A stretch of 63,415 nucleotides of DNA from a virus (Duplodnaviria > Caudoviricetes). A program made the position numbers and the translations under genes. The stretch spans positions 1-63,415 of IMG/VR virus record IMGVR_UViG_3300025085_000016; one strand, written 5' to 3'. The number at the start of each line of letters is the position of its first letter. Within the stretch, counting starts at the first letter, position 1. Below the pieces are notes generated by a model. The model searched no databases. It had not been told where the DNA came from and saw nothing but the letters and a program-made list of their open reading frames with translations. Below are positions 3,612 through 35,900 of this stretch, in pieces.

Positions 3612-3998
3612 TTAACCCTCAAGCTGATTGATTCGTTCTTCAAGCTCTCTTAGCTTTTGCTGCACACGGTCGTCTGCAAACTCCCAGATGCCGCCAATCT
3701 CATCTAGTATCTCTGCGCCTGCCTTGATTCTCGGATCATCGCGATGGATGCAATCTCCGTAGGCGTTGTTCATGTAGACACAGTCAATGCTCTTCTCGCC
3801 AGCGGACACAACAAACGCAACGCCTGCGTTCCTTGCTGACACGGTCCCTCTCGGGTAGATCACAACGCACTCGCCACGGTCTGGCTGTGGCATTGACCAT
3901 TCCTTGGGAGGCTCTGGGCTTGGCACAATGTCAACTTGAGTTGACACTGGTTCTACTGGCTTCGGTGCGGGCTTTCGTCGTGCTGCTTTTTTAGCCAT
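3612..3998 (-). CDS. Hypothetical protein between TerL and portal (allele A)
   Basis: ATG at 3998 (MAKKAARRK); homolog 62748-63149 shares WSMP.P.RG, C.H.DDPR and GG.W.F. Confidence 0.8.
   Translation of the reverse strand: MAKKAARRKPAPKPVEPVSTQVDIVPSPEPPKEWSMPQPDRGECVVIYPRGTVSARNAGVAFVVSAGEKSIDCVYMNNAYGDCIHRDDPRIKAGAEILDEIGGIWEFADDRVQQKLRELEERINQLEG
3929..3946. repeat. 18-bp inverted repeat TGTCAACTTGAGTTGACA, copy 1 (in CDS)
   Basis: Exact match to copies at 14519, 22449 and 34599. Confidence 0.95.
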
Positions 3999-5736
3999 CG
4001 TATGTTCCTTGAGGTCCGAGAATAATTGTGCTGGTAATACCAAACGGATTCTTGGCCTCTTGCCTGTCTTTCATTCGCTTCTTAAATGCCCGCACTCGCC
4101 TCTGTCCTGCGGTCAAAGCCTTTCTCTTTCCTTTCGGTCTGATGTAAGGCTCGCTTATGTCATTTACATAGGTTGCTAAATACTCAAGGCACTCGATTGC
4201 GTGGGTGTTAGTTCGCCTGTTGCCAGTGTCTGTCACGACCCCATTGGCTTTCTTCTTTCGGAACCTTCGCATTTCGCGATCTAAGTTTGGACATGCGTTA
4301 AAGTCTACTAATATCTGTGGCTTTCCCGCGCCTGTAACTGCCAACATTCCTCTGGTGATTTCTTCTCGGTAGGCGATGACAGAGCAGCCGGGCGTGAATC
4401 TGTTTTTTGTTTCTATACACTGAACATCAAGTGCCTTCATCTCCCGCTCGTATGCTTCGCGAGGAGATATGCCTGTGTCCATAGAGGTCAGGTTTCCACC
4501 GTGAGAGTCAATCAAGAATGTTTGGAACCATGTTCCCGCAGTCGAATCATGCAGAGCTTTTGCAATCATCCTTGCCGTACACTGCCTGAGATATATCTCT
4601 CCGAAAACCAAGTGCCAAGTTCCACTTGGTGGCGTAGCAATCAAGATTCCTGCTGCGGTATCGTGTCCGGGGTCAACCGATAGACGCCTACACCAGTTAA
4701 TAGGAACCTTCCTATTCTTTAGGAACTCGTTGGCTTCAGGAATCTGCTCGCTATATCTATCCACATCATGAAGCGATCTGTTCCACATTGGGTACATCAA
4801 GACGCTGTCCGTTATCAGCTCACCCAAAGCCCTCTTGCGGTAGACATCGTCCCCCATGCTCTTCCAGCCAGCGACTGCTGCTTTCTTAGCCTCTGCCGGA
4901 AGGTAAGGGTTCGCCTCCATTGAGATCCGATACACGATGGTCGTTGGCTTTGGACCGCCTCTAGTGAACTCGTCGGCCTGTGTATCCGCTCTCTCAGCAA
5001 GTCTGGCGATTGCATCGTTGTCATCGTGCGGAAGAGCAGACCATATCAATCGACCGCTCCTGTCAATGAGACGACCGGCTGCTTCTTCGTAGTGCCTCGG
5101 ATCGAGAATATCTTCATCAATGTGCAGTAGGTCGCAACTGTAGCCTTGGTCTGGCTTAGAGCGTGAACTAAAAGCTTTGATTTCCCATCCTGTTTTCAGG
5201 AACACATTGCTGAATACGTTCTTGCCCCTGTCCTTCCATACGATCTTTTCAATCATTCTTGGAGGAATCAAAGGAGGTGCTGGCTTAGCCTCCTTCTTTC
5301 TAGCAACATCTTGTGGAACCCAAGGACGGTAGACCCTCCACAAGTCCGTCTCTTTGTCACGGATAATCTTGAATGCGCCTGCTTTGAACAAGTACGGATA
5401 CACTACCCCCCCAAGATGTGATTCTTTGTACCCGATGATTGCTAATACACCGTCTCTCTTTGGGTACTTGTCGTAAGGGTCTTTACCTAAGACAGCTCTT
5501 GCGTCCTCAACGAAAGCAGCCAGTGACTTGCCGCCTCTGTTTCCGCCCTGCAACATGCACTCCGGTGCATCACACCGATGGAACTCGTCTTGCGTTGGCT
5601 GAGGGATGTATAGATTTAGAGCTTCGATTCTCCTCTTGGCGATCTCGCCAGCGACACGAAACGCTTTCTTTTTTGCGAAGCTGCTGTGTCCAATGTCCTT
5701 GAGAGCATCTGCTGGCATTCCGGGCGAGTCAGTCAT
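3991..5736 (-). CDS. terL: Terminase large subunit
   Basis: Q motif (PQPTQDEFH), Walker A GGNRGGKS, Walker B LLHIDED, nuclease SVDPGH, C-terminal THAIECLEY; ATG 5736 overlaps the upstream stop. Confidence 0.92.
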   Translation of the reverse strand: MTDSPGMPADALKDIGHSSFAKKKAFRVAGEIAKRRIEALNLYIPQPTQDEFHRCDAPECMLQGGNRGGKSLAAFVEDARAVLGKDPYDKYPKRDGVLAIIGYKESHLGGVVYPYLFKAGAFKIIRDKETDLWRVYRPWVPQDVARKKEAKPAPPLIPPRMIEKIVWKDRGKNVFSNVFLKTGWEIKAFSSRSKPDQGYSCDLLHIDEDILDPRHYEEAAGRLIDRSGRLIWSALPHDDNDAIARLAERADTQADEFTRGGPKPTTIVYRISMEANPYLPAEAKKAAVAGWKSMGDDVYRKRALGELITDSVLMYPMWNRSLHDVDRYSEQIPEANEFLKNRKVPINWCRRLSVDPGHDTAAGILIATPPSGTWHLVFGEIYLRQCTARMIAKALHDSTAGTWFQTFLIDSHGGNLTSMDTGISPREAYEREMKALDVQCIETKNRFTPGCSVIAYREEITRGMLAVTGAGKPQILVDFNACPNLDREMRRFRKKKANGVVTDTGNRRTNTHAIECLEYLATYVNDISEPYIRPKGKRKALTAGQRRVRAFKKRMKDRQEAKNPFGITSTIILGPQGTYDG

Positions 5737-12585: not shown

Positions 12586-12775
12586 CTCTCCTAAAGTGTG
12601 AAAGCCGCTCTTCGTATGCAGAGCGACACGAATCCATAAACTCTTCATCAAGCGTGTGAGGAAGCTTGTTGAGCGACTGCACACGCAAAACCTGACCGAG
12701 AAACTCCAACGCACCTAGCGTCCTGCAATCCTTAATGCACTGGAGCAAAAAGCCTTCATTGACTTCCGTGTTCAT
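12407..12775 (-). CDS. Hypothetical protein (3' half overlaps the SSB-like gene)
   Basis: ATGA-coupled to the helicase stop; C-terminal extent doubtful. Confidence 0.45.
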   Translation of the reverse strand: MNTEVNEGFLLQCIKDCRTLGALEFLGQVLRVQSLNKLPHTLDEEFMDSCRSAYEERLSHFRRDDEGLRQQHAGSSVQERQGDRREQAASVPGELRDRRQGILDLQLDQDGEVGDEVYELEL

Positions 12776-14346
12776 ATTCGCCTCCCTGCGTAGTAGTCCT
12801 TGACTGTCCGCCCCCAGTCTGAGCCGCGAGTCGGAAGCTGAACGCTTGATATTTCGTGCGGCTTCAAGACCTTTACGCCCTCTATGCGGGCCTGACGCTC
12901 AGCCTGCTTGTAGGCAAGCTTGATGGTCCCTTGTCCCTGCCCGTTTCGGAACGCATAGAGCTTCTGACGAACGATGTCATCGAATCGTTTTCGACGCTTG
13001 TGCTTCGTGAGACGACCCACTTTTCGCTCAGTGAGCTTGCCATCAATCTCTCGGACCATGCGTACACTGCGGTTGTGCTTGTGTCCGCACTCGAAGCAAA
13101 CACCACCACCTGTCCTAGCTGCGCCGCACTTTGGACAAACGATTGGTTCCAAACCTGAACCCTTCGCTTCTTGCCTGCGTTTCCTGAGATCCTTCTGCAT
13201 CGAGTTGTTCGTGCAGCCAAGCTCCCAATCGCGATCCACAAATGGAAAATCGTGGCGATCTGTGCTTCCAGAGTGATCCTGAATAATCACATGGTCGTAG
13301 TTCGAGTGATAACGAAGTACCCTGCCTACCGACTGGAGGTAAGTCGAGAGTCCTGCCATCGTCGAGCAGATGATCGCGTGATATAGCCACGGCATGTTGA
13401 CACTCTCGCGAAGTACAAACCGATTGTGAACGATCTTGAAAGTTCCATCCTTGGAACCATCAATCACCTCCTGACGAGCATCGACAGTAGAGTCGTACTC
13501 GTCCACACCACTGAAGTCCGCTCTGCACATGACAACCCTCGATCCGTCGATGGATGCGGTTCGTACTCCCCGCTGCATGAACTTGTAGACGTACCCAACC
13601 GCACTGCTCACATCCGGTGCGAACAGAACTGCGGGTAGGGCTTCAGGATTTAGACGTTTCCATTCGTCGTACACCCGTCCGTGGATTGACTCGATGTGAT
13701 TTATCTTTGCGTCGATAGCCGCTGATATTTCGCCCGACGACTGTATCTTCATTACATCGCGATCATTGCGAGCTACGCAAGCTGGTATCTCTGGAACAAA
13801 GACCTTTGCTGGCAAGTGAGCCTTGCAATCAAGAAGCTCTTGAAATGTTGGCCCCTGAACCAGTTCGTCATAGCTAGCAGAGAGTCCCACAGGTGTTGCG
13901 GTATAACCAATGATTGCCTTGCATCCATTCGTGCGGTGAGCATCAAACACTTCTTGAGCCTGCTTGCTCACCATCTGATGCGCTTCATCAACAATGACTA
14001 TGTCAGCGTCGAACACTGCACCAGACCGGGCTGCTACTGTCTGAAGTTGGCACACCTGAACTTTTGCAAAGAAGTCTTTCTTCGACTTGAAAGCTGCTGC
14101 GATCCCCCCATACCTAATCCCCGACTCCTCTAGCATGTCCATAAGCTGCTTCGTATTCTGGATGCGAACGGAGTACACCGCCACCTTCAGGTTGTTCTTC
14201 AACGCACCCTCGATGATTCGTCTCATCATCAGCGTCTTGCCTGCTCCACAGGGAGCGACAACACACCACCGCTTACACTTCTTCGCCCACATTACTTGGC
14301 AGTCGCGGTGAATCCTGTCTTGATGCGGCCAAGCTGTTAGTTTCAT
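12772..14346 (-). CDS. Superfamily 2 (DEAH) helicase with C-terminal zinc ribbon
   Basis: APCGAGKT, IVDEAH, TAT, QSVGRVLR, CPKC...CFECG; ATG 14346 overlaps the upstream TGA. Confidence 0.9.
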   Translation of the reverse strand: MKLTAWPHQDRIHRDCQVMWAKKCKRWCVVAPCGAGKTLMMRRIIEGALKNNLKVAVYSVRIQNTKQLMDMLEESGIRYGGIAAAFKSKKDFFAKVQVCQLQTVAARSGAVFDADIVIVDEAHQMVSKQAQEVFDAHRTNGCKAIIGYTATPVGLSASYDELVQGPTFQELLDCKAHLPAKVFVPEIPACVARNDRDVMKIQSSGEISAAIDAKINHIESIHGRVYDEWKRLNPEALPAVLFAPDVSSAVGYVYKFMQRGVRTASIDGSRVVMCRADFSGVDEYDSTVDARQEVIDGSKDGTFKIVHNRFVLRESVNMPWLYHAIICSTMAGLSTYLQSVGRVLRYHSNYDHVIIQDHSGSTDRHDFPFVDRDWELGCTNNSMQKDLRKRRQEAKGSGLEPIVCPKCGAARTGGGVCFECGHKHNRSVRMVREIDGKLTERKVGRLTKHKRRKRFDDIVRQKLYAFRNGQGQGTIKLAYKQAERQARIEGVKVLKPHEISSVQLPTRGSDWGRTVKDYYAGRRI

Positions 14347-14996
14347 ATCTGCTCCAATCTGTCTTCGATGAGATTGAGCATCCGGTCGAACTCTTTCCCG
14401 ATCAGCCCAAGCTGACCTGCGTTCTTTTTGAACTTGGCAAGAGCCTCCAAAGCCCGCCTTGCACACTGCTTTGCCTCGTCGCCAGTCACTGGTTCGCTTG
14501 AGGGGCTGGATTCAGGAGTGTCAACTTGAGTTGACATCTTGGGGGTCGGTGCTGGAGAAGAGACTTCCTTGACTGCCTTCTTCATAAGCGATGTTGTGAC
14601 GACTTGTTTTCCCTCGTCCGCTGCCATGTCACGCGCTTTCTCGATGACTTCAGCAGCAGACGAATCATCCATTCCGATAAGCGGTCTAACAGAAGCTTCG
14701 TGAAGATCGCTTACGTCAATGTTCTGAGACAGCCTTTTCGCCATATCGACAAAGTCAATTATCTGGTGAACCCTCTGCCTACTGATTTGCCACTTCTCTT
14801 TGCAGTACGACTCAAAGTTGGTGTACCCAACAGATATGTAGAGCCTGCTGTCTCTGATCTCTTTTAGTGCAGCGTAGCCTTCCCTTTGCTTCTTGCGACC
14901 GTGTTCGACGATCTTCTCCAGATTCTCAAGGCGAGTCTTGTCTGCTTCCGTTACTTCAAGTTCCATCTTTAGATCCTTATTTGATTCTGATTCCAC
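14343..14996 (-). CDS. DUF3102-related helical DNA-binding protein
   Basis: ALKEIRDSRLY...FESYCKEKWQISRQRVHQII...EASVRPL pattern; carries the 18-bp palindrome in its own gene. Confidence 0.6.
   Translation of the reverse strand: MESESNKDLKMELEVTEADKTRLENLEKIVEHGRKKQREGYAALKEIRDSRLYISVGYTNFESYCKEKWQISRQRVHQIIDFVDMAKRLSQNIDVSDLHEASVRPLIGMDDSSAAEVIEKARDMAADEGKQVVTTSLMKKAVKEVSSPAPTPKMSTQVDTPESSPSSEPVTGDEAKQCARRALEALAKFKKNAGQLGLIGKEFDRMLNLIEDRLEQI
14519..14536. repeat. 18-bp inverted repeat TGTCAACTTGAGTTGACA, copy 2 (in CDS)
   Basis: Exact copy, encodes MSTQVD on the minus strand. Confidence 0.95.
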
Positions 14997-15330
14997 AAAC
15001 GGTTCGACCCGCGAACCGCACCTTGTTGTCTACATAGAGAGTGACGGTCTTACCCGCCCATTCGCGAACGTCCGTCCCGAACTTCGCTACCATCGTTTTC
15101 CTGTTGGTGTTGTTAAGAACCAACTGCTTTTGCTTCTTCTCAAACTCAAGCGTGTAGACAGTCGGTTCCTTCCTACCCTTGTCAAACTCGACATCCTTGT
15201 AGCGGTGACAGCGAACGACTTTGACTTTGACATCACCGACATCAAGCAAGTCCTCGCTCGCCAACCACGGAGACTCCTTCATCTCCGAACTTCTCCCCTC
15301 AAACACTTCCCCGTTTGGTTTTTTATTCAT
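14977..15330 (-). CDS. Conserved phage recombination-module protein (OB-fold/SSB-like)
   Basis: WLASEDL...LVLNNTN...FGTD...WAGK.VTL...GIRI; sits directly after the RecE-like nuclease. Confidence 0.6.
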   Translation of the reverse strand: MNKKPNGEVFEGRSSEMKESPWLASEDLLDVGDVKVKVVRCHRYKDVEFDKGRKEPTVYTLEFEKKQKQLVLNNTNRKTMVAKFGTDVREWAGKTVTLYVDNKVRFAGRTVCGIRIK

Positions 15331-16177
15331 CAAACCCCTCCAGTTCGCCTTCCTCGTCAACACCCACATCCCACGGGTCCAAGGTCAAATAAGTTGGCGA
15401 GGACTCCCAGTCCTCGCTCCAGTCGTTCTCGTCGGTTCGTCTTTTCAATTCATTGAGCAGGCGAACGTATGCTTCGCTCGCTCTCTCGCGGCTGATCTGG
15501 TCCCATTCGTACTGGGCGATTCGGAAGGGCCAAACGCTCTCAACTACCCAGAACTGGAACTTCACAGGCTTTCCGGTGATGTGGGCCAGTCCACTGGAGT
15601 AGTGTGCGTCCTGTAACCAGTACCCAAGTCGCTTAGCTATCCGTCCCCAGTTACTGGGTGAGATGCCTTCGCTTACTTTGAGGTCGTAGCAGATGACACT
15701 GTCCTCGGCTTCATACATGAAGTCTGGCTTTGCTTTGCAATCCAGCCCTGTCCCCATGTCCGTCCAGAAGATGGCTTCCTCAAACACGATGTCGTCGCGA
15801 CCGATGAGCTTTCCAAGGTCGTGGTGAAGGACTGCGTTGCAGATAGAGAACACTCGCTTGTATTCATCTTCCTTGACTGCGACCTTTCCCTGAGACTTCA
15901 TTAGCTCGCGGAACTCTTTCGCGGGCTTTGGCTTCAGCCTGTCCCCCACACCCAAGCAATCCATCGGGTAAGGAACGATGACCTCAGACACATCCCTCTT
16001 TTCAAGCAAGGCTTGGTGGACCATGTCCCCGATAATGACAGCCCGCTTATCCGAAAGATCCGGCTTTGGCTGCTCCCCGGTGACGTAGCAAGCCTGATAC
16101 TTGCGAGGGTTGCTCTTCAGCATCTTCAGACTAGATGTCTGCACTCTCTTCAGCGCGTGATACTCTTGGTTATCCAT
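15323..16177 (-). CDS. RecE/exonuclease VIII-like PD-(D/E)xK nuclease (DUF3799 type)
   Basis: YHA...SSLK, G...H.ALLE, CKAKPD, YDLK, YWLQDAHY. Confidence 0.85.
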   Translation of the reverse strand: MDNQEYHALKRVQTSSLKMLKSNPRKYQACYVTGEQPKPDLSDKRAVIIGDMVHQALLEKRDVSEVIVPYPMDCLGVGDRLKPKPAKEFRELMKSQGKVAVKEDEYKRVFSICNAVLHHDLGKLIGRDDIVFEEAIFWTDMGTGLDCKAKPDFMYEAEDSVICYDLKVSEGISPSNWGRIAKRLGYWLQDAHYSSGLAHITGKPVKFQFWVVESVWPFRIAQYEWDQISRERASEAYVRLLNELKRRTDENDWSEDWESSPTYLTLDPWDVGVDEEGELEGFDE

Positions 16178-16371
16178 CCCGCTCCACTCCTTCTGTTGCG
16201 TTTCGTTCTCTTTCCTGTATCTGCAAGTCGATCAACTCGCACGTTTGGTGGTGCGTCGATGACACACTTAACCTTCCCCTGACCGCTTGGTTCGACGAAA
16301 AGCCGAACAACGGTTCCATCTGGCAACGTGAGAGCTAATCCCTCGCCGCCCCGTCTGCTCAAAACGAGCAT
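16150..16371 (-). CDS. csrA: CsrA/RsmA-like RNA-binding translational regulator
   Basis: MLVLSRRGGE...KVKCVIDAPPNVRVDR aligns to CsrA MLILTRRVGE...VRIGVNAPKEVSVHR; SD GGAGGT upstream of ATG 16371. Confidence 0.7.
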   Translation of the reverse strand: MLVLSRRGGEGLALTLPDGTVVRLFVEPSGQGKVKCVIDAPPNVRVDRLADTGKRTKRNRRSGAGWITKSITR

Positions 16372-16865
16372 CCAAACACCTCCTTTAATTTGATTTCTCG
16401 AATGCCACCCCCATCCAAACCCGTCCATTCATCCATGTAGTCCGTGCGAGGCTTGGCGAGGCGTATGTTTCTGCACCTCTCCTTGATCTGCGCGGGCGTA
16501 GGAAACCGAGAAAGGTCGGTGGCTCGACATTCGTTTCGCGAAAAGATTGATCCATCACTTGCGACCACTTGCTGGTCGACCATCAGAACGAGGTCGTTAC
16601 AGACAGTGACCTGCACGAAAACATCTACTGGGTGCAAACCGAGTGCGGATAGGAGAGGAGAACCCTCAAGATTGTGCCGGTGTTCGATATGCCCGATGGA
16701 CTTACCTCTGAACCAGCTAATAGAGTGCTGGTCACACTTGGCGACCGCATCATTCTTCAGCAACTCAAACAATTCCGTGACGCTCCCCGTCGATGTGAGT
16801 CGCCATTGGGCATTGCGGTAAGCAGTGTTGACGAGAACTAACTGTCGCTGCTGTTCCGATACCAC
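16359..16865 (-). CDS. Hypothetical protein (PTPAQIKERC motif)
   Basis: 168-aa ORF heading the recombination operon, GAGG before GTG. Confidence 0.55.
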   Translation of the reverse strand: MVSEQQRQLVLVNTAYRNAQWRLTSTGSVTELFELLKNDAVAKCDQHSISWFRGKSIGHIEHRHNLEGSPLLSALGLHPVDVFVQVTVCNDLVLMVDQQVVASDGSIFSRNECRATDLSRFPTPAQIKERCRNIRLAKPRTDYMDEWTGLDGGGIREIKLKEVFGCSF

Positions 16866-17120
16866 GGCATCCTCACCTGTATCCTCACTATTGGTTAGCT
16901 TTCCCCCAGCTAACTCTGTTCAAGTGGGGATGTGGCGAACATCAAACGCAGCTAAAAAGCACCCCAGCGCATCTAAACAGCAGGGTTGCCTCACTGGAAC
17001 TCAGGTGACTGAGATCCAAAGCCGCGATAAAGACTGTGACGAAAAACATCACACACCACAAACCGCACTTGCAACAAACATAAGGGTGCAGGTATCAGAG
17101 TCAACAGGCGAATGGGAAGA

Positions 17121-17156
17121 AAATAAAAAAACCCAATGCTTGCAAAAGCACTGGGT
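17121..17156 (-). terminator. Rho-independent terminator downstream of integrase
   Basis: Minus strand ACCCAGTGCTT-TTGC-AAGCATTGGGT then TTTTTTATTT. Confidence 0.85.
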
Positions 17157-17159
17157 CTC

Positions 17160-21454: not shown

Positions 21455-21474
21455 GACTAATACAGTCTCTCACC

Positions 21475-21851: not shown

Positions 21852-21910
21852 ACAAACGGCAGTTACAAAACAGTTTAATTTTCTTTCACTATTAGGAATA
21901 GTAATCAGTT

Positions 21911-22378: not shown

Positions 22379-22400
22379 GACACTGCGACCACCCTCCCCT

Positions 22401-22447
22401 TGGATTGTCTGGTGACTTCAAGACAGGTTCGATTCCTGTCGGTCCAC
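22401..22447 (+). ncRNA. Minimal tRNA-like element (acceptor stem + T-arm, no anticodon arm)
   Basis: TGGATTG/CGGTCCA 7-bp stem, ACAGG-TTCGATT-CCTGT, 15-nt linker containing CTGGTG. Confidence 0.6.
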
Positions 22448-22448
22448 T

Positions 22449-22466
22449 TGTCAACTTGAGTTGACA
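22449..22466. repeat. 18-bp inverted repeat TGTCAACTTGAGTTGACA, copy 3 (intergenic)
   Basis: Exact copy. Confidence 0.95.
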
Positions 22467-22551: not shown

Positions 22552-22881
22552 ATGACAGTCTCAGTGCTGTTACTCTTGGCTTCCACCGCCCTCTTGACTT
22601 TGCTTCGGCAACAAGAGCAAGGAAGCTCTCACTATCAGATTATCTTGATCGCAACTCTGGTTGTTCACAATCTCTGGGGATTCTACTACGGACAGAAGGC
22701 AAGGAGGAGGGAGATAAGGAAACAACAACAGAAGGAAGTCAGACCCCTTCAGGAATCAATACAAAAGATGGGCGAACTGTCCAATCTCTGCGATGAGATC
22801 AACGAGAGATGGGGAGGGAGTCAATCCCAGCAGTCTCATTACTCAGACAGAGAATCAATCTGGTACTCGAAAGGAAACTGA
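22552..22881 (+). CDS. Membrane protein
   Basis: AAGGAG SD; two hydrophobic segments followed by a basic stretch. Confidence 0.7.
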   Translation: MTVSVLLLLASTALLTLLRQQEQGSSHYQIILIATLVVHNLWGFYYGQKARRREIRKQQQKEVRPLQESIQKMGELSNLCDEINERWGGSQSQQSHYSDRESIWYSKGN

Positions 22882-23503: not shown

Positions 23504-23540
23504 GGGGCGAACGCCGCCACCAATCGCTACACCATTGCCG
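23504..23540 (+). promoter_or_regulatory. Early conserved motif copy 4 (core at 23524)
   Basis: GGGGCGAACGCCGCCACCAATCGCTACACCATTGCCG. Confidence 0.75.
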
Positions 23541-23595
23541 GGCAGCAGTTGCTCGTCATTGCTTAATTGTTTCTCTCACGGAGTTTTACTTAACC

Positions 23596-24750
23596 ATGTT
23601 CAACAAACAATCAAAACGAAAGATTCTCAACGAGGCTCTTTGGATTGTCGCTCAAGCCAAGAGTGGTTCTATCCCGGTTGCCTACGGTAATCCCGGCCTT
23701 GCCAAGACCGTCAGTGTCGAGGCGTTTGCCAAGCTACTGGGATACTACTACAAGCAGTTCATCCTGTCTCAGTCCATGCCAGAAGATGCTGGTGGCAACC
23801 CTTGCCCCACTGAGGTCAACATCGGTGGCACTGTCTACAAGTGTGTGTCCAACCTCAAGCAAGAAACTCTGCTTAGGGCCATGCACCAAGAGACTGTCGT
23901 TCACTTGGACGAGGTGAATCAATGTTCTCCTGCTGTTATGGCAGCTAACCAAGAGCTATGGTTCAACAATCCACCTGAGAAGTCCATCGTAATCGCCACT
24001 GCCAACAGCTTGGAGGTTGCCACTGATGGATTCCAGTTCTCTGCTCCGATGATTAACAGGATGTGTGTCCTTGACTGGGAGTTTGACGACGATGCTTGGC
24101 TACAAGGCATGACTCAGGGTGAGTTTCCTCCTCTTGAGTTCCCCGTTCTTGAGGGTGACTGGTCTGGTTACAAACAGAAGTGGAAGGCTCTTGTCGGTCA
24201 ATTCCGACGACAAAAGCCGGGTCACTTTGACTGGGCTAACGTGTTCCCTAAGACTGATGCAGAGAGAGCTTTGCCTTGGCGTTCACCTAGATCTTGGGAA
24301 CGTGGTGCTGTTTGCCTTGGTGCTGCCGAGGCTGTTAGTGCTGGTCAAGACACTGCCAAGAAGATCCTGTCTGGGTTTGTTGGTGAGGGTCCAGCTCTTG
24401 AGTTCTTCAGTTGGGTAGAGTCGGCTGGCTTCCCTCCATCTGAGGTGCTGTTCAACAACCCTTCGATGCTTCACTTGCCACCTCAGTTCGACACTGCGGC
24501 TTCTCTCGTTGGTGGCGTCTACTGCCACGCTGCAAGACTCATCACCAAAGAGCCTGAGAACGCAGAAGAAAACTTCGAGAAGTGCTTGGACTTCTGTGAG
24601 CATGTCTTTGCCGAGAACCGTGAAGCTGGCACTGCTTTTGTTGGTAGGTTTGTCAAGCTCAAGCCACAGAGCTACAAGCCCATGCGACGATCCCATCTCC
24701 TCTGGGACACGGTTGGTGCTTCACGACCTAAGCAAGCTGTGACCGTCTAA
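23596..24750 (+). CDS. MoxR-like AAA+ ATPase
   Basis: Walker A GNPGLAKT, Walker B HLDEVN, sensor IATAN, arginine finger MINR, SPRSWE. Confidence 0.88.
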   Translation: MFNKQSKRKILNEALWIVAQAKSGSIPVAYGNPGLAKTVSVEAFAKLLGYYYKQFILSQSMPEDAGGNPCPTEVNIGGTVYKCVSNLKQETLLRAMHQETVVHLDEVNQCSPAVMAANQELWFNNPPEKSIVIATANSLEVATDGFQFSAPMINRMCVLDWEFDDDAWLQGMTQGEFPPLEFPVLEGDWSGYKQKWKALVGQFRRQKPGHFDWANVFPKTDAERALPWRSPRSWERGAVCLGAAEAVSAGQDTAKKILSGFVGEGPALEFFSWVESAGFPPSEVLFNNPSMLHLPPQFDTAASLVGGVYCHAARLITKEPENAEENFEKCLDFCEHVFAENREAGTAFVGRFVKLKPQSYKPMRRSHLLWDTVGASRPKQAVTV

Positions 24751-24833
24751 TGCGGCGACTTCTAACTATTATTTTCTGCGAGTCAATCTTCTGGCTTGCC
24801 CTTTGGTATTTAAGAATCCTCATGGTGAGGTAA
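24750..24833 (+). CDS. 27-aa single-pass membrane peptide MRRLLTIIFCESIFWLALWYLRILMVR
   Basis: TAATG overlap with the ATPase stop; hydrophobic core flanked by Arg; below the ORF-track cutoff. Confidence 0.5.
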   Translation: MRRLLTIIFCESIFWLALWYLRILMVR

Positions 24834-24898
24834 CTCCGTAGCTGTTCACTAGCTCGTAGCTAGTGGACAGCAGCAGTGTGACCTTTCTCTTACTAGGA

Positions 24899-26173
24899 AT
24901 GATGATGGACGCTAGAACAAAGTTTACCGTAGCTCTCAAGCAATCATGTGTTGATCTCCCACAGATCGCCACCATGCTGCTTCGGCTCTCGCCCAGAGAG
25001 AAAGAGGGTATCGGCACTGTCGGTGCTGACCAGAGACTACGCTTCTACTATGACCCAGAGGTCATGGATGCTATGTCTGTTGATGAGGTTTCATTTGAGC
25101 AGAAGATGGCTATTGCACATGGCTTTCTCAGTCACGGAAGCAGAGGATCTTTCTTGGGCGACGACCCCAGTTCTGTCGAAGCGTGGAAGAAATCTACACG
25201 GATCAGTGCTGTGGAGTTCCTCAAGACCTACGGACAAGAGGTTCCACCTCATGCCCCATGCTGTGACAACACCACAGACGTTGACGGAAACCCGTTGCCT
25301 CAAGGTCTTTGCTCTGAGGAATACTACGGGCTGCTGCTTGAAAGCGGACAAGAGCCACCGCCTCCACCAGATGGACCAGATGGACCAGAAGAACATAAGG
25401 GTCCAGTAAATGATACAGGGCGGGGCGGTGGTGGCGAAATCCAAGACGGAAAGGAACGTGATTGGCAAGATGAGTTCAGTGATGACGACATCAACTCTAG
25501 GCCAGACGGACCTACTGACGGTGAACTTGAGAAGCTCCGGTCTAAGCTGGGCGAGGGACTCAAGAGCATGGGTAGGTCTGGTTGTGGTGACTTCGCTATG
25601 GTTCAAGATTCACTAGAGAAACCCAAGATTCGACCAGAGCAGTTGCTTCGTATGGCAATCGCTAGGAACGTCACTAAGTTTCGCCGTGGAACCAGCCAGC
25701 CTACCTATCGTAGAGTCTCTCGCAGGCAGCAGATTGGCGACCCTTTCATCAAGCCTAGTCACGTTGACCCCACCCCTAAGGTCACAGTTGTCGTTGACAC
25801 TTCAGCAAGCATGACCAAGAGAGAACGGGAGCTTGGTCTTGGGATGGTTGATCTTGCCCTCAAGGGGATGAAGCTCGACGAGGTTCGTGTTGTTGGTGCT
25901 GACACTCAGATCTCATCAGATCAGTCCAGCATCAAGAACGCCAGTCAAGTCAAGCTGACTGGAGGTGGTGGCACTCGAATGGACGAGGTGGTCAACACTT
26001 TGCTTTCAGAGCCAGCCAGCAAGCTTCCTGATCTTCTGATTCTTGTTACTGACGGTGGAACTGAGTGGCCTGATAAGAACAGGGTTCCTGTTATCAGTTG
26101 TGTAACCCAGCCAGAAGAAGTTCGTTTATGGCAAACTCCACCTGACTGGATGCCTTTGGTTTACGTTGGGTAG
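24899..26173 (+). CDS. DUF2201-type metallopeptidase-like + VWA domain protein
   Basis: MIDAS VDTSASM, GGGGT, LVTDG; PTYRRVSRR linker; adjacent to a MoxR ATPase. Confidence 0.85.
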   Translation: MMMDARTKFTVALKQSCVDLPQIATMLLRLSPREKEGIGTVGADQRLRFYYDPEVMDAMSVDEVSFEQKMAIAHGFLSHGSRGSFLGDDPSSVEAWKKSTRISAVEFLKTYGQEVPPHAPCCDNTTDVDGNPLPQGLCSEEYYGLLLESGQEPPPPPDGPDGPEEHKGPVNDTGRGGGGEIQDGKERDWQDEFSDDDINSRPDGPTDGELEKLRSKLGEGLKSMGRSGCGDFAMVQDSLEKPKIRPEQLLRMAIARNVTKFRRGTSQPTYRRVSRRQQIGDPFIKPSHVDPTPKVTVVVDTSASMTKRERELGLGMVDLALKGMKLDEVRVVGADTQISSDQSSIKNASQVKLTGGGGTRMDEVVNTLLSEPASKLPDLLILVTDGGTEWPDKNRVPVISCVTQPEEVRLWQTPPDWMPLVYVG

Positions 26174-26182: not shown

Positions 26183-26219
26183 GAGCCGAGTGCCACCACC
26201 GTTCGCTACACCATTGCCG
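26183..26219 (+). promoter_or_regulatory. Early conserved motif copy 5 (core at 26203)
   Basis: GAGCCGAGTGCCACCACCGTTCGCTACACCATTGCCG. Confidence 0.75.
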
Positions 26220-26267
26220 ACAAACGGCAACCAGCAATTTGTTTCTCTTACTAATGGAATACTTACC

Positions 26268-30306: not shown

Positions 30307-30896
30307 TGAGCATGACAGAAGAAATGATCGAGTCATTGATTGATGCTTGCATCGACGTTGGATTCTTTGATGCACAAAAAGAGGTGCTTCAAGCTAGTGG
30401 CAACGGGTGCTGCGTCAATGCAACCTACATTGGCCTTGAGGTTCTTCGCAAGCTTGGGGTCGATGCTTCGCCATCGGCTTGGGACGCGATGGTCATGAAC
30501 GAAGAAGCTCGCTTGCTAATGATGGAGCAAACTCCTGTCGATGAATGGCCCGATACTGCATGGTCAGTGGGAGTCAACGCGAAAACAAGAGACGCTAATG
30601 GAGTTGGGTTTCATGCTGTCGTTCAGATCAGAGAAGGAATCCTTGACCTCTCGTCAATTCAGTTTGACCGGCCAAGCAAAAACATCAATGTTCCGATGGC
30701 AATGTTTGTCTCAACCAAAGACTTTAGTGGAGGTGAGATTCATGTGGAGCAACACAGCACTCACTACGTTCTCTACAACAAAAGAAGCAGGACATCAGCC
30801 GCACTGCGAACTGCAAAGGGATTCTCTTCTGATGGGATGCTCGGTCGCATAACTAATTCAGACTGGATCAACATGATACTAGGAGAGATGGAATGA
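30303..30896 (+). CDS. Hypothetical protein with Cys-His-Asp (transglutaminase-like) pattern
   Basis: GCCV...FHAVV....ILDLS..QF; catalytic-triad reading is inference. Confidence 0.5.
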   Translation: MMSMTEEMIESLIDACIDVGFFDAQKEVLQASGNGCCVNATYIGLEVLRKLGVDASPSAWDAMVMNEEARLLMMEQTPVDEWPDTAWSVGVNAKTRDANGVGFHAVVQIREGILDLSSIQFDRPSKNINVPMAMFVSTKDFSGGEIHVEQHSTHYVLYNKRSRTSAALRTAKGFSSDGMLGRITNSDWINMILGEME

Positions 30897-31738
30897 TAAA
30901 AGTTGCAGGCTATGGTCGCATGTCCACCGACAAGCAGCAGATGTCGCCTAAAGTACAGACAGACAAGATTGAGCAGTGGGTAAAGCAACAGCAGTCTGTA
31001 GGCAAATGGAAAGACGGAGCAAAGTTCATTGGCATGTTCATCGACGAAGCTGTGTCCAGTAGAGTTGACATGCTGAAACGCCCCTTTGGTCAGCATGTGG
31101 TTACAGTCCTCGACCCCGGTGACATGGTTGTAGTCGCCTCTCTTTCTCGCGCCTTTCGCAGCGTCAACGACACTTGGAATACCATGCGTGTGCTAGACGA
31201 GGCTGGCATAAGCATTGCATTTCTTGACTCTCCTATGGATACATCCACTCCAGTAGGAAAGCTGATGCTTACTATGGTTGCTGGATTTGCTGAGTTTGAA
31301 AGGGACTTAATTTCAACCAGAACAAAGGACACCGCAGCAGTAAAGAGAAAGCTCGGTGAACCAATAGGACCGGCCCCAGTAGGATGGAGAAACATGAAAG
31401 ACAAGCGAGGCTGCTACATGACTCCAGACAAGACGATCAGAACAGTAGCCTCTGCTGCCGCCAATCTCTTTCAGCAAGGTAACTCAAGGGAGTCAGTCTT
31501 TCTGAAGATGAGGGCAGCAATGTGCAAGCGAAACCTTCAGCCAAAGTCACACCAGTGGTATGTCACTGCTGCCGCTGCATCCTGCCTAGACTTCCCCAAG
31601 CAAAGCATAAGATTCGTAAGCAGCGTACTTGGGTTCGATGTTGATAGAATGTCTTTCGTAACTCATGGAAATCACGGAGACGCAAGGCGTCAGCTATCGG
31701 AATGGTTGAAGCAAGAAGGGTTCAAGGATGCACCGTAA
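30893..31738 (+). CDS. Serine recombinase (resolvase/invertase family with C-terminal extension)
   Basis: YGRMSTDKQ (catalytic Ser), DEAVSS, RP, GD.VVV.SLSRAFRS, FAEFERDLISTRT. Confidence 0.92.
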   Translation: MIKVAGYGRMSTDKQQMSPKVQTDKIEQWVKQQQSVGKWKDGAKFIGMFIDEAVSSRVDMLKRPFGQHVVTVLDPGDMVVVASLSRAFRSVNDTWNTMRVLDEAGISIAFLDSPMDTSTPVGKLMLTMVAGFAEFERDLISTRTKDTAAVKRKLGEPIGPAPVGWRNMKDKRGCYMTPDKTIRTVASAAANLFQQGNSRESVFLKMRAAMCKRNLQPKSHQWYVTAAAASCLDFPKQSIRFVSSVLGFDVDRMSFVTHGNHGDARRQLSEWLKQEGFKDAP

Positions 31739-32572: not shown

Positions 32573-32941
32573 CTAGCTCTCAAGGGCGTTGATAACAACA
32601 CGACAGGCTGCTGTGTCTGCTTTCAGATACAACGTGGTCGATGCGCTGTTGATCCTAAATGGACCAGCAGTTTCGCCAGCCATCAGCTTGCCACCGTAAA
32701 CACCAGTGCTGAACCCCCACTCAACAAAGTTAGTTGAGTCAAGGTTCTGAATGGTACACCAACCCGGTGTTGTCAGCTCACTGAAAGCCTCCGTCTCTTC
32801 GGAGGTTCCGATCTCTTTCATACCCGGCGATGGTCCACCCACCGCTGCTTGGTCGTAGCTCTTTGTGCCATAGTTCTGTGAGAACGAAAGGTTCCCATTG
32901 TCTACAGACATGCTTGCTGCTATTCGGATCTCGTCAGCCAT
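32573..32941 (-). CDS. Putative small virion protein
   Basis: 122 aa beta-rich (IQNLDSTNFVE..LMAGE..LYLKADTAAC), coupled to the giant gene. Confidence 0.65.
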   Translation of the reverse strand: MADEIRIAASMSVDNGNLSFSQNYGTKSYDQAAVGGPSPGMKEIGTSEETEAFSELTTPGWCTIQNLDSTNFVEWGFSTGVYGGKLMAGETAGPFRINSASTTLYLKADTAACRVVINALES

Positions 32942-35900
32942 CAGTTATTCTCCTGTGCTTGTTGCATTTCTCGGATTGCTTTTCGCTGCTTTGCTCTATC
33001 AGCCAACAACGCGCTTGCTTTCTTGAGGCTGTCTGCCATAGCCCTTTGCTCTGGATTAAGAGATTCTAACGCTTCTTCTGGTATATAGTCTCGCTCAAAG
33101 GTGCGACCACCAAGCTCGCTCATCAGCAGAGAAGAACGCTCCCTAAGAATTTGGTCTTGAGCCTGCGGACTTACCTTGCTCACTTTGAATCCAGTGAGCG
33201 TGTTCAACGCCTTGGTAGGCAGGCTCTTTCGCGTGTCTGTAATCTGCTTCGCTGTTGAAACAAACTTTGAGATTGGACTGTTAGACAGAACGCTTTCAAG
33301 AATCTTCGGCGTCCCAACAGGTTCATTGCTGTCACTGAACCCAAGCCCAGAAGCTACGTTATTAAGAGTCCTGCCAAGCGGCGGGTCCATATCGTCGAGA
33401 AGTCTTCCCCCTCTAGGATCTTCTTGGAAAAGACTCCTGTTAAACATTGTCTCTAACATAAACTTAGGAGCAGGATTCAACATCCCTCCTACCTCGAACA
33501 TAGGTTTCTGAATGCTTCCACTGGAAAGAACATTCGCTGTAGCATCAGCAAGAGGCAATACAGATTCGTGCATCAGGCCCAGACCTGTAATGAAGTTTCT
33601 TGATCCATCTTCATCAGCACCAAGAGGGACAGAAACTCCCTGAGCTATGTAGTCTGGCGTAGTTACATCATCACTCCTGCTTCTGTTAGCTGCTCGCAGC
33701 GTGTTCGATACCTTGCCTCCGGGCTTAGTGTATATCTCGTTGGCTAAGTATTTCGACATCCCTTTGCTAAAGGAATAGAAAGGAAACAGGCGACGAATAA
33801 CTGTCCGCTCTGCACTTGACAAGTCAGAGTAGTCAACATGAAGAAGCCTGATTCTCTTAGCTGCCTCAGCAGGATCGTAGCCCTGCTTGAGTAACGCGAT
33901 GAATCCTCCAAGACGATGCGAACCCTCAACCAAGTCTCCAGCTTGGCGACCTACCCTAGCGGGGCCAAACCTGTCAATGGAACCATCACCACCAGCTACC
34001 TTCCAAGGCTTAAAGGAATCAAACGAAGAAAGCCTCTTGTCTTTGGGAATCCTAACGTCAGCACTTTGCGAACCAGACTTCATGAAGGACATCATCTTCT
34101 CTCTGAGAGTGTTGCCCTCCTGCTTGATAGATCCGGGGATAGCTTCCTGAACTGCACCTCCTACTCCGTAGATCTCTCGGTGCTGCCCCGGAGAATCAAA
34201 CACTCCGTGCCTAAACGCGAGCTTCCTTAGCTCTCCTGTGGCTTCCTCTGCCGTCAAGGAACTTAAAGAAGGAATCGCTTCAAGACCCTCAATAGAATCG
34301 CCCACCATCACTGTGGCCGCGTCCTTGTAAGGTCTTAGGTACTTCCGCAAGCCGGGCTGAGTAGGGTCGAAGATGTCGTTCAGTGCATTCTGTATTGCAC
34401 CGCTAGTAAGGTTCCTGAAGTGGAATGACGGCCACACTGTGGTGACGTTGCTCTTGAACATGTTGGTATAGGAGTCATACCAATCGGCCATAGACTTAAA
34501 GGCATTGTCCTTAGTGAGTTCATTGCTTAACTGGTACACCCTTGTGACATCGGACATTACGTCTTCGTCCATGCGGAACTGAGCCAGCTTTTCTTTGATG
34601 TCAACTTGAGTTGACACTTCCATCTTGCTGTTTCCAGTACCGACAGTCATCTTCGCTGGTATCTTCTTGCCGCTAGAGTTTAGCGACTCCATCTTGCTTA
34701 CAAGCTCGTCTATCGAGTCATCTACTGTTCTTACCCTTCCCTCTGCGTCTTTGACCCCACTTCTTTCTAGGTCAGCAACAACAGCAAACCTTTCCTTCTC
34801 CAGCCTAGACCTAAGAACTAGACGCTCTGCTTCCATGAGATCATCAGTTCCGATCTCATCCTGCATTGCATTCAAAGCGCGAACGCTTGTGTACTTCATC
34901 TCATCTAGTGCATCCATCAGAGTGCGAGTCTTGTAGGATGTGTACTTCTGCTCACCCACAAGGTCGTCAAAGAATTGGTGCATCTCTGGACGCATCTTTC
35001 GCTCAATGTCAGAACCACGGATGACACCGCGATAAGTGCTGACAATAAAGTCCTTGAACTTATTCCACATTCCTTCCCAACCATCGTCTACCTGCTTGCC
35101 ACCGTCTCTGTTCCACTGCATGAACGCATCGGCAAACACTTCCTCTCCACTTCTTAGAGTCCCCGTTGCTGGGTCAGTAATTTGTGCAGTCCAGTTGCCG
35201 TTCTTAATGCCTAGCGTCCGCTCTACTCTGTCCAAGTAGGCTGGCTCTATCTGACGCAATGACATCCTTAGCAAGTGACCCATTTCGTGAACAAATGAAT
35301 GCTGATCTGCTTGCTTGTAAGCAACGATCAGGGTTTTGTACTGGCTCTTCATCCAGTCTTCTGGCAAATCAATATCTCCAGACCGAATCCCTTTGGGGTC
35401 TTTGACGGGAAACAGAATGGAAGCCTTCGCTCCACCGTTGACGGGTGTTCCTTGGTAGAACACGTTGTCAACAGCGTTAGCTCTGGTTACGTCATCGAAA
35501 AGAAACTCTGTTGTTTCGTAAGAGTATTTTTTTGCACTACTGTATTTGTCGGCGGGAAGCGCGTCGTTCATAATTTCTGCTGCCGCTTTCTTAGCATCCG
35601 ACATCACCTTAAAAGCGCCACGATGTTCTGCATCTACGAACACTTCAAAATAATCAAGTTCTAAATTCTCTTTGATCCATACTTTTTCAGGGCTGTTCAT
35701 AGTAACGGGCCTGAAATCAGACAGCGGAAGAACGCCAGCCATAAATACTTTCTCTTCTTCTCCGAACTGATTTTCATCCCACTGATACAAGTCTAGTTTA
35801 AGGTTGTCAGCGTCTACCCTTTCTGGAAACGCATGTCCTGTTGATGCAGAAAATTTCTGACCACCGCCAAGACCTCCCTCTTCGCGGCTCTTCTTGAAGT

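What the first reader, a model, noticed from the sequence alone, without database searches (positions are those of the whole stretch)
3929..34616. Candidate new protein/site system: four exact dispersed 18-bp palindromes, one inside a DUF3102-related DNA-binding gene
Seen: TGTCAACTTGAGTTGACA (7-bp arms, TTGA spacer, always the same orientation) occurs exactly at 3929, 14519, 22449 and 34599, about 8-12 kb apart. Near copies lie at 54678 (2 mismatches) and 31053 (3 mismatches). Three copies sit in unrelated ORFs, all read as STQVD. One is intergenic, so selection is on the DNA. The allele-B homolog of the 3612-3998 gene lacks it. Copy 2 lies inside the 217-aa LKEIRDSRLY...ISRQRVHQII helical protein gene, which also has a possibly decayed TGTC-N8-TTGAC at 14714-14731 just after the putative recognition helix. 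Established: parS sites often sit inside ORFs (read as VSRET), and phage N15 uses four dispersed inverted repeats as centromeres. Inference: the 217-aa protein binds these sites as a ParA-less, parS-like genome organising, partitioning or silencing system. My unverified recollection is that homologs carry other palindrome-encoded peptides (STIVD, SPIGD), which would imply site/protein co-variation.
Basis: partly seen in the sequence, partly recalled or inferred. Interest (0 to 1): 0.85.

Follow-up and report, generated by a model that had tools for sequence, protein, structure and literature searches.

The report
Phage protein with self-embedded binding palindrome
A marine phage carries four identical 18-base palindromes, one inside the gene of a small DNA-binding-type protein, and related proteins in many other phages each carry their own matching palindrome at a fixed spot in their own gene, which points to an undescribed protein-and-site system.

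Summary
TGTCAACTTGAGTTGACA occurs exactly four times, all on the + strand. Shuffles give a mean of 0.09 matches.

Copy 2 lies in the codons of a disordered linker of a 207-aa helical protein. Six homologous genes, down to 42% identity, keep this palindrome with compensatory changes.

The protein belongs to a large unnamed family: 9639 representative clusters. In 68 of 80 viral loci, a perfect palindrome follows the putative recognition helix. Control windows give 120 of 4000. The palindrome differs between phages and tracks the helix sequence.

Two other phage records show arrays. One, which shares only this protein with the window, has 10 dispersed copies of its own in-gene palindrome; a probable relative of it has 8. 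In 52 of 53 loci there was no second copy within about 10 kb.

Neither the window nor the 10-copy record encodes ParA or a ParB N-terminal domain. The site is not a host-chromosome motif.

Best reading: a cognate dimeric protein and palindrome pair, amplified here to 4-5 sites. Binding rests on comparative evidence only. The role is open: anchoring or organising, replication-linked, or silencing.

One caveat: an unrelated prophage has six copies of the same 18-mer and no detectable family member.

The parts
14519..14536 (.). Copy 2 of the 18-bp palindrome. It lies inside the 207-aa protein gene, in the codons for residues 145-149 (STQVD) of the disordered linker. This is the conserved, ancestral copy of the subfamily.
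   Evidence: linker 138-160 has pLDDT<50. Kept with covariation in 6 homologous genes.
14343..14966 (-). Gene for the 207-aa all-helical protein, counted from the ATG at 14966. It has an N-terminal domain with an HTH-like pair of helices (51-59 and 63-79), a disordered linker and a C-terminal helical hairpin. It is the proposed binder of the palindromes.
   Evidence: (homodimer score 0.64, best control 0.00).
3929..3946 (.). Copy 1, in the K/P-rich N-terminal tail of a 128-aa protein (3612-3998, minus strand). It is absent from the diverged second copy of that gene at 62748-63149.
22449..22466 (.). Copy 3, intergenic between the + strand ORFs 21911-22378 and 22552-22881. It directly follows a tRNA T-arm-like remnant.
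   Evidence: No tRNA or Rfam family was called there. A contig from a close relative departs from the window at 22440.
34599..34616 (.). Copy 4, inside the 3397-aa ORF (32941-43134, minus strand), near residue 2840. It reads VSTQVDI, as copy 1 does.
54678..54695 (.). Probable degenerate fifth copy with 2 mismatches, both in the right arm. It has the same TG centre and reads SNQVD inside the 561-aa repeat protein gene.
   Evidence: My calculation of chance for a match within 2 mismatches in this window is about 0.003.
31053..31070 (.). Doubtful 3-mismatch copy inside the serine recombinase gene.
   Evidence: My calculation of chance is about 0.04, so this one is not relied on.
14714..14731 (.). 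Codons for LSQNID, just after the putative recognition helix. This is the position where most of the wider family keeps its palindrome. Here it is no longer palindromic and is possibly a vestige.
   Evidence: The vestige reading is inference.
12772..14346 (-). SF2 (ResIII/DEAD-type) helicase gene. Its likely ATG overlaps the stop codon of the 207-aa gene (ATGA), so the two genes are probably co-expressed in the replication/recombination module.

Best explanation
The 207-aa protein and the 18-bp palindrome are a cognate pair.

**How it works.** The protein is a symmetric homodimer. Each subunit places a helix-turn-helix-type recognition helix (residues 63-79, ...SRQRVHQII...) on one arm of the palindrome.

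**The in-gene copy.** One copy of the site is written into the protein's own gene. This is a trait of a very large, unnamed family of phage and plasmid proteins. In most members the palindrome lies 14-21 codons after the first residue of the helix. In this subfamily it has moved to the linker.

**The other copies.** In this phage the site has multiplied to 4-5 copies, 8-20 kb apart, mostly inside unrelated ORFs. The protein would therefore mark the phage chromosome at intervals.

**Most likely role (inferred).** The sites act as anchoring or nucleation points for a ParB/KorB-like task carried out without ParA and without a ParB CTPase domain. That task could be organising or bridging the phage DNA, or holding it for the neighbouring replication/recombination enzymes.

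**Status of each step.**
- Shown: the repeats, the conservation, the covariation and the family-wide pattern.
- Inferred: binding, and the dimer-on-palindrome geometry.
- Open: the biological role. My odds, conditional on binding, are organising/anchoring about 0.35, replication-linked about 0.3, and transcriptional auto-regulation or silencing about 0.25.
For: 1. **Non-random repeats.** Four exact copies against 0.09 expected.
2. **DNA-level selection on copy 2.** In six homologous genes (97% to 42% identity) the flanking linker varies. The bases GTC.AC....GT.GA are invariant. The free wobble pair changes on both sides together: A:T in 3 genes and C:G in 3. Overall 91.7% of cells pair, and 1 of 500 shuffles reaches that.
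3. **Family-wide pattern.** The A1 profile finds 9639 representative clusters at E<=0.001. In 80 viral loci, 68 have a perfect palindrome with arms >=7 within 32 codons after the helix; 64 have arms >=8 and 42 have arms >=9. In 96-nt control windows from the same loci the counts are 120, 57 and 28 of 4000.
4. **Site tracks helix.**
   - Nine of the 10 loci with an SRPRAY[QE] helix have a palindrome, and all nine begin GTCT[AG].
   - Identical helices give identical palindromes: L157/L159/L162, L139/L141, L133/L134.
   - In the close subfamily, Q at the third helix place goes with A:T (3 of 3) and S or A with C:G (3 of 3).
5. **Arrays in other phages.** Record G005 (56,278 nt) shares only this protein with the window (26% identity over 145 aa). 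It has 10 dispersed copies of its in-gene palindrome, control 0. G008, a probable relative of G005, has 8, and G006 has 2.
6. **Dimer.** The homodimer model scores 0.64 against a best control of 0.00. That mark was reached by 20 of 30 proteins solved as pairs and 1 of 23 solved as single chains. The runs share at least 86% of contacts and the partner pLDDT is at least 70. My own alignment was used.
7. **Location of the site.** It lies in the disordered linker, residues 138-160.
8. **Not a host motif.** The 58 stretches found in 185,579 species genomes are scattered, and none is titled Planctomycetota.
Against: - No binding experiment exists.
- No significant structural match to any solved DNA-binding protein. 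Foldseek against PDB gave 0 of 533 listed matches at E<=0.001, and the top hits were AAA+ lid domains. ParB-like viral hits had E of 0.47-0.89.
- Pfam gives no family.
- A prophage in an unrelated 7.2-Mb genome (G001) has six copies of the identical 18-mer. Neither profile finds a family member there, and no window protein has a homologue in the 116 kb examined.
- The same 18-mer also serves as an operator-type site for other regulators in Actinomycetes and in phototrophs. The sequence alone therefore does not name its binder.
- The helix-to-site code is not simple. KRQR helices go with GTCGGA (L120), and one TAAR helix goes with GTCAAC (L218).
- Dispersed arrays are rare in the family: 1 of 53 loci had another copy within about 10 kb.
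- Copies 1 and 3 are not kept in close relatives.
Confidence: 0.62

Rival explanations
1. Same binder, but the function is replication. The protein is an origin-binding initiator whose origin lies inside its own gene, as in lambda O/ori (recalled) and SPP1 gp38/oriL. The distant copies act as secondary origins or fork barriers, as SPP1 oriR does.
For: The gene sits in the replication/recombination module. Its stop codon overlaps the start of an SF2 helicase gene, and a PDDEXK nuclease gene lies next to it. Among the 72 downstream neighbours in distant loci, 3 are ResIII helicases and 3 are Mu transposases. [quoted passage not shown] Gene 38 is named together with loader gp39 and helicase gp40 (PMC6316719, passages seen).
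Against: There is a single palindrome rather than a cluster of iterons. No AT-rich unwinding element lies within 400 nt of any copy: the highest AT was 0.60-0.67, against a window mean of 0.50 and sd 0.057. Ten copies in G005 is many for origins. Most downstream neighbours have no replication family.
Confidence: 0.2
2. Same binder, but purely transcriptional. The in-gene site is an auto-regulatory roadblock or operator. The dispersed copies give KorB-like or stoperator-like silencing of the phage genome, for example in the prophage state.
For: The phage is temperate: it has a tyrosine integrase with a tRNA-Ser(GGA) piece at its 3' end. Copy 3 is intergenic, upstream of + strand genes. In the G001 prophage all six copies are intergenic, and several lie 17-55 nt upstream of start codons. 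KorB silences promoters from distal OB sites (PMC11790492, passages seen).
Against: Three of the four exact copies, and the 54678 copy, lie deep inside ORFs far from starts. All ten G005 copies overlap ORFs of at least 90 aa. No promoter evidence was obtained. The protein lacks the ParB CTPase clamp domain that KorB uses.
Confidence: 0.18
3. The sites are bound by something else, either a host protein or another phage protein. Their presence in the 207-aa gene is incidental.
For: The identical 18-mer occurs six times in an unrelated prophage with no detectable family member. The same sequence is an operator-type site next to a 73-aa HTH gene in Actinomycetes. It also lies upstream of crtI- and bchE-like genes in phototrophs, where it fits the recalled PpsR/CrtJ pattern TGT-N12-ACA.
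Against: This cannot explain why 68 of 80 distant family genes carry their own, different palindromes at the same place, tracking the helix sequence. It also cannot explain why G005's array matches G005's in-gene site. There is no host regulon: G001 has 21 further matches within 2 mismatches against 15 for the reversed control, and no Planctomycetota record was hit. The G001 prophage appears split between two contig ends, so its early region may simply be missing.
Confidence: 0.08
4. The selected object is a nucleic-acid hairpin in RNA or single-stranded DNA, not a protein-binding duplex.
For: Both-sided compensatory changes keep the pairing, which is the classical signature of a stem.
Against: The copies keep one DNA orientation whatever the direction of transcription. 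The mRNAs would therefore carry two different loops. Many family palindromes are perfect with no loop at all, and 16-28 bp long. The sequences co-vary with a protein helix. Rfam finds nothing.
Confidence: 0.05

Closest known systems
KorB with its OB operators on IncP plasmid RK2
   Same: One DNA-binding protein has several identical short palindromes dispersed over a replicon of about 60 kb and acts at a distance (PMC11790492, passages). That RK2 has 12 OB sites is recalled, not checked.
   Different: KorB is a ParB-family CTPase clamp that works with IncC (ParA) and KorA. The window has no ParB_N and no ParA. It has no significant fold match, and most copies lie inside ORFs.
Chromosomal ParB/Spo0J with parS, and phage N15 SopB with four dispersed centromere repeats
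   Same: A palindromic site lies inside coding DNA, including inside the binder's own gene, and copies are dispersed. Both facts are recalled; for N15 only the reference list was seen.
   Different: No ParA/SopA partner and no ParB N-terminal domain were found. HTH_ParB matched 1 of 85 family members. The phage has an integrase and an att-like tRNA piece, so it need not partition as a plasmid.
SPP1 gp38 with oriL inside gene 38 plus oriR, and lambda O with ori inside O (lambda recalled)
   Same: The binder's site is embedded in its own gene, the gene is part of a replication set that includes a helicase, and a second site lies kilobases away (PMC6316719, passages).
   Different: Those origins are clusters of direct repeats with an AT-rich unwinding element. 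Here there is one palindrome per place and no AT-rich flank.
Borrelia PF49 (Pfam PF01672, NCBIfam borfam_49) and DUF3102 (PF11300)
   Same: The N-terminal 60 or so residues show weak likeness. borfam_49 scores 20.2 bits in the window protein and matches 4 of 10 family members tested. Language-model neighbour clusters carry PF01672 (16%) and PF11300 (10-74%). PF49 corresponds to PF01672 (PMC6945570, passage).
   Different: The scores are far below the curated cut-off of 60 bits. Pfam hmmscan gives 0 of 14 and 1 of 85. No function of PF49 was checked here.
Dispersed repressor sites of temperate phages (mycobacteriophage L5 stoperators, phiC31 conserved inverted repeats); recalled, not checked
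   Same: Many identical short sites are spread through a temperate phage genome and bound by one phage protein.
   Different: Those sites sit in short intergenic gaps, oriented with transcription. Here 3 of 4 exact copies are inside ORFs, and the binder candidate is not a recognisable repressor.

Membership tests
ParABS partition system | ParA (Walker-type ATPase) partner gene | tested here: not met
   PF13614 and PF01656 give 0 matches in the window and in G005. The controls match in 14 of 14 genomes.
ParABS partition system | ParB N-terminal (CTPase) domain and ParB-type HTH | tested here: not met
   PF02195 gives 0 matches in the window and in G005. HTH_ParB matches 1 of 85 family members at E<=0.001 and 0 of 14 close homologues. 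There are no PDB fold matches at E<=0.001.
ParABS partition system | Palindromic centromere site, often inside or next to the binder's gene | tested here: met
KorB-type global silencer | Sliding-clamp ParB fold, with operators placed relative to promoters | tested here: not met
   No ParB_N domain. Three of the four exact copies are inside ORFs. Promoter positions were not determined.
DUF3102 (PF11300) | Match to the Pfam model above its threshold | tested here: not met
   0 of 14 at E<=1 and 1 of 85 at E<=0.001. The only support is ESM Atlas feature neighbours.
Borrelia PF49 / borfam_49 (NF033725) / PF01672 | Match above the curated cut-off of 60 bits | tested here: not met
   20.2 bits for the window protein. 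Four of 10 family members scored 16.8-21.2 bits.
Initiator with an in-gene origin (lambda O, SPP1 gp38 type) | Cluster of repeated binding sites plus an AT-rich unwinding element inside the gene | tested here: not met
   One palindrome only. The highest AT within 400 nt of copy 2 is 0.60.
Initiator with an in-gene origin (lambda O, SPP1 gp38 type) | Binder gene directly upstream of helicase or loader genes | tested here: met
   The stop codon overlaps the start of the SF2 helicase gene. This holds in only 3 of 72 distant loci.
PpsR/CrtJ operator (TGT-N12-ACA, recalled) | PpsR regulator and photosynthesis genes in the host | not tested
   The 18-mer fits the pattern and occurs upstream of crtI- and bchE-like genes in phototroph genomes. 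Nothing links this phage to such hosts.

The most novel reading that the evidence does not exclude
A very large, unnamed family of phage and plasmid proteins is a self-linked identity cassette. Each gene encodes a dimeric DNA binder and also carries, a few codons after the recognition helix, the exact palindrome that this binder reads. Specificity and site therefore cannot be separated by recombination, and they diversify together like incompatibility types. Because the site is transcribed just after the helix codons, the nascent protein could load in cis on the very DNA molecule that encodes it. In a few phages, including this one, the tag has been copied 4-10 times around the genome. This marks the whole chromosome as 'self' for organisation, segregation or protection, without ParA.
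Probability: 0.25. Interest if true: 0.9.

Novelty: new variant of a known kind. Interest (0 to 1): 0.8.

Why it matters
If the pairing is real, thousands of uncharacterised phage and plasmid proteins gain a predicted DNA target that can be read directly from their own gene. The helix and half-site pairs form a natural table of recognition rules that can be tested. The arrays in this phage and in G005/G008 would be a ParA-independent way of marking a whole viral chromosome. That bears on how phage DNA is organised, replicated or silenced in poorly studied marine hosts. The work also shows that a conserved peptide in a disordered linker can be the shadow of a DNA site.

Tried and rejected
**Searches for relatives and for the site elsewhere**
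- An exact scan of viral contigs for the 18-mer found 3 other contigs with one hit each. That is chance level, and each is a single site next to a LAGLIDADG-like gene.
- Close relatives of the protein in IMG/VR: none found. Only one 10.4-kb contig turned up, through the helicase. It has no second copy of its palindrome.
- A scan for a guessed 16-mer variant gave 16 single, chance-level hits.
80 loci were listed, nearly all with a single site; 3 of 81 sites lie in a family-like gene.

**Read laying**
- A contig 4-5% diverged from the window covers copy 2. The table of differences is cut (742 rows not shown), so conservation of the site there cannot be read.
- A relative's contig leaves the window at 22440, just before copy 3.

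**Fold and family assignment**
- Foldseek against PDB gave no significant match.
- Foldseek against BFVD gave 2 unnamed phage proteins at E<=0.001.
- hhalign of the family against the Actinomycete 73-aa HTH family gave probability 10% and did not align the HTH regions. HMMs of either family found nothing in the G001 prophage.

**Alternative readings of the sites**
- tRNA or other RNA family at copy 3: none.
- Mobile-element insertion: rejected. The diverged second copy of the 3612-3998 gene shows no indel at copy 1, and copy 2 is old.
- Host regulon in G001: no excess over the control.

**Tools and literature**
The long contigs that hold P0006, P0007, P0011 and P0012 could therefore not be read.
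- Searches on DUF3102; palindrome with own coding sequence, phage and DNA-binding; PF01672/PF11300; and dispersed palindromic sequences in bacteriophage found nothing on this family.
- Supplements were not consulted.

Full report
**1. The observation**

The window is a complete IMG/VR virus record of 63,415 nt. Its two ends are diverged copies of one another: 1-4264 against 59125-63415, at 72-92% identity. The unit genome is therefore about 59.1 kb.

TGTCAACTTGAGTTGACA occurs exactly at 3929, 14519, 22449 and 34599, always with this strand on top. A 2-mismatch copy lies at 54678 and a 3-mismatch copy at 31053. In 100 dinucleotide-preserving shuffles the mean was 0.09 matches.

Read closely, the repeat has 8-bp arms around a TG centre, so only two bases give it an orientation. 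Copies 1, 2 and 4 lie in minus-strand ORFs and all read STQVD. Copy 3 is intergenic. The diverged second copy of the gene holding copy 1 lacks the site and shows no indel there.

**2. The gene around copy 2**

The ORF, counted from the ATG at 14966, encodes 207 residues. Its stop codon overlaps the ATG of an SF2 helicase gene. A PDDEXK nuclease gene (DUF3799) lies just upstream (15323-16177), and a tyrosine integrase gene lies further up the same strand (17187-18323). The only tRNA called, tRNA-Ser(GGA), overlaps the 3' end of the integrase gene, which fits an attachment site.

An AlphaFold2 model has mean pLDDT 78. It shows an all-helical N-terminal domain (7-136), a disordered stretch (138-160) and a C-terminal helical hairpin. 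Copy 2 encodes residues 145-149, inside the disordered stretch. A homodimer is predicted with score 0.64 against 0.00 for the best control. That mark was reached by 20 of 30 solved pairs and 1 of 23 solved single chains. The runs agree in at least 86% of contacts, the partner pLDDT is at least 70, and my own alignment was used.

No named family could be assigned:
- Pfam finds nothing.
- PHROGs gives three families of unknown function at E of 4e-5 to 4e-4.
- NCBIfam gives borfam_49 at 20 bits against a cut-off of 60.
- Foldseek against PDB gives no match at E<=0.001.
- ESM Atlas feature neighbours include clusters carrying PF01672 and DUF3102.

**3. Selection acts on the DNA**

Thirteen of the 14 homologues found (97-42% identity; the weakest, P0014, was left out) were aligned. 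They keep ST.VD inside an otherwise variable linker. DNA could be read for five of them:
- L008: GTCAACTCAAGTTGAC
- L009: GTCCACTCAAGTGGAC
- L010: GTCCACACGTGTGGAC
- L011: TGTCAACTTTAGTTGACA
- L086: TCCACTATAGTGGA

The only arm pair that is free at the protein level is the Ser and Val wobble bases. It is A:T in three genes and C:G in three, and is never mismatched. Overall 91.7% of cells pair, 1 of 500 shuffles reaches this, and slid controls give 23-38%.

**4. The family**

A profile of the close homologues finds 9639 representative clusters at E<=0.001 and 1500 at E<=1e-10. An alignment of 14 distant members showed S-T-x-V-D as invariant about ten residues after the conserved helix ...SRPRAYQLI....

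Among the 168 viral-contig loci that encode relatives, the best 80 were examined. In 68 of these 80, a perfect palindrome with arms of at least 7 lies within 32 codons after the helix; 64 have arms >=8 and 42 have arms >=9. Random 96-nt windows from the same loci give 120, 57 and 28 of 4000. In 67 of 80 by my count of the listing, the longest palindrome of the whole gene starts 58-80 codons into the match.

The sequences differ widely. Examples are TGTCTACAATTGTAGACA, TGTCGCCAATTGGCGACA, TGGGACCAATTGGTCCCA and CGGTACCATGGTACCG. The peptides they force include STIVD, SPIGD, GPIGP and GTMVP.

The sequences go with the helix:
- Nine of the 10 SRPRAY[QE] helices have a palindrome, and all nine begin GTCT[AG].
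- Identical helices have identical palindromes.
- Helices with Asn at the sixth place go with TGGG.., GACAC.. and other non-TGTC arms.

The rule is not simple. KRQR goes with GTCGGA, and one TAAR helix goes with GTCAAC.

In the window's subfamily the canonical place now reads LSQNID and is no longer palindromic (14714-14731). A palindrome that forces the same ST.VD peptide sits in the linker instead.

**5. Arrays**

In 52 of 53 loci with a palindrome, no second copy within 2 mismatches lies in the 5-20 kb of DNA held for that locus (up to 10 kb of flank on each side). The exception is L177. It belongs to G005, a complete 56,278-nt record with ten dispersed copies of its in-gene site: core GTCAACCGCGGTTGAC, as 18-mers 3 exact, 4 with 1 mismatch, 2 with 2 and 1 with 3. 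The reversed control gives 0.

G005 shares nothing else with the window: only the family protein matches, at 26% identity and E=4e-12. G008 has a near-identical helix and peptide and is probably a relative of G005. It has 8 copies. G006 has 2 and G007 has 1. Neither the window nor G005 encodes ParA-type ATPases or a ParB N-terminal domain.

**6. Is it a host motif?**

An exact scan of one genome for each of 185,579 species gave 58 stretches. None is in a record titled Planctomycetota. One close homologue, P0012, is labelled Rubripirellula.

Most hits are single and fall into two operator-like settings:
- In Actinomycetes, tandem GTCAAC-N4-GTTGAC palindromes lie upstream of a 73-aa HTH gene whose helix reads LGVSRQAVHKK.
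- In phototrophs, single sites lie upstream of crtI-like and bchE-like genes. This fits the recalled PpsR/CrtJ pattern.

The exception is a 7.2-Mb MAG, G001, with six exact copies. All are intergenic within a prophage that encodes a terminase, an SPP1-type portal, a scaffold protein and a capsid protein, with an integrase near the end of another contig. G001 has no excess of degenerate sites elsewhere: 21 against 15 for the control. It has no detectable family member. The 116 kb examined holds no homologue of any window protein. This is unexplained. The prophage seems to be split at contig ends, so its early genes may be missing.

**7. Reading**

The comparative pattern is hard to explain unless each protein reads the palindrome in its own gene. 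I put binding at about 0.8.

The role is not settled:
- An origin-like role fits the gene's neighbourhood and the SPP1 gp38/oriL/oriR precedent. It lacks iterons and an AT-rich element.
- A KorB-like or stoperator-like silencing role fits a temperate phage. It does not fit the position of most copies inside ORFs.
- A ParA-less anchoring or organising role fits the arrays and the faint likeness to Borrelia PF49.

I found nothing in print on this family.

Noticed in passing
G001 (7.2-Mb MAG): contig C77 at 12598-21502 and contig C190 at 53509; loci L070-L077: Six exact copies of the window's 18-mer, mostly as the 20-mer TTGTCAACTTGAGTTGACAA. All are intergenic in a prophage late region and near its integrase, and they occur in both orientations. 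No family member and no homologue of any window protein was found there.
   Followed up: partly
Loci L013, L019, L023, L031, L033, L037, L039, L041, L043, L056, L060, L063, L065, L066, L068, L069 (Actinomycete genomes): The 18-mer sits next to a second GTCAAC-N4-GTTGAC palindrome about 10 nt away. In ten of these genomes the pair lies upstream of a conserved 70-97-aa HTH gene (helix LGVSRQAVHKK). This looks like an uncharacterised auto-regulated operator pair.
   Followed up: partly
window 1-4264 and 59125-63415: The two ends of the record are diverged copies of the same 4.3 kb (72-92% identity). The assembly probably ran from one strain into another around a circular or permuted genome. Genes here are present as two variants.
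   Followed up: partly
window 20170-20204, 21517-21573, 21815-21871, 23504-23560, 26183-26239: A 35-57-nt repeat family (..GCCGCC..TTCGCTACACCATTGCCGAC..) has five copies. Three lie 60-100 nt upstream of ORF starts in the + strand gene block. It may be a phage-specific promoter or leader element.
   Followed up: no
window 17160-17243 and 17187-18323: tRNA-Ser(GGA) overlaps the 3' end of the tyrosine integrase gene. One run shows very high contig depth over just this stretch. Both points fit an attachment site in a host tRNA-Ser gene. Relatives in two runs skip 17125-18762, which includes the integrase.
   Followed up: partly
window 22400-22448: A tRNA T-arm-like piece (..AGACAGGTTCGATTCCTGTCGGTCCACT) abuts copy 3. 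ARAGORN and Rfam call nothing there. In one related contig the sequence after 22440 starts like a tRNA.
   Followed up: partly
window 16150-16428 (minus strand): A 92-aa ORF has a sub-threshold CsrA match (24.3 bits, cut-off 27).
   Followed up: no
window 23596-26173 and 30893-31738: A MoxR-type AAA ATPase gene sits next to a DUF2201 metallopeptidase/VWA gene. A 281-aa serine recombinase is present in addition to the tyrosine integrase.
   Followed up: no
window 18650-18770: An AT-rich stretch with repeated ATGCAA motifs lies at the divergence point of the minus-strand and plus-strand gene blocks. It is a candidate switch or origin region.
   Followed up: no
window 32941-43134, 45929-46090, 54344-55132: A 3397-aa ORF, seven 18-nt tandem repeats (Gly/Pro-rich when read on the minus strand), and five 99-nt repeats inside the 561-aa ORF that holds the degenerate fifth copy.
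   Followed up: no
P0014, P0022, P0069, P0112 (family members): The N-terminal domain occurs fused to other modules. These are a Dam methylase domain (precomputed PF05869), a 150-residue N-terminal extension, a radical-SAM 'mobile pair protein A' part and a weak Cas4-like part.
   Followed up: no
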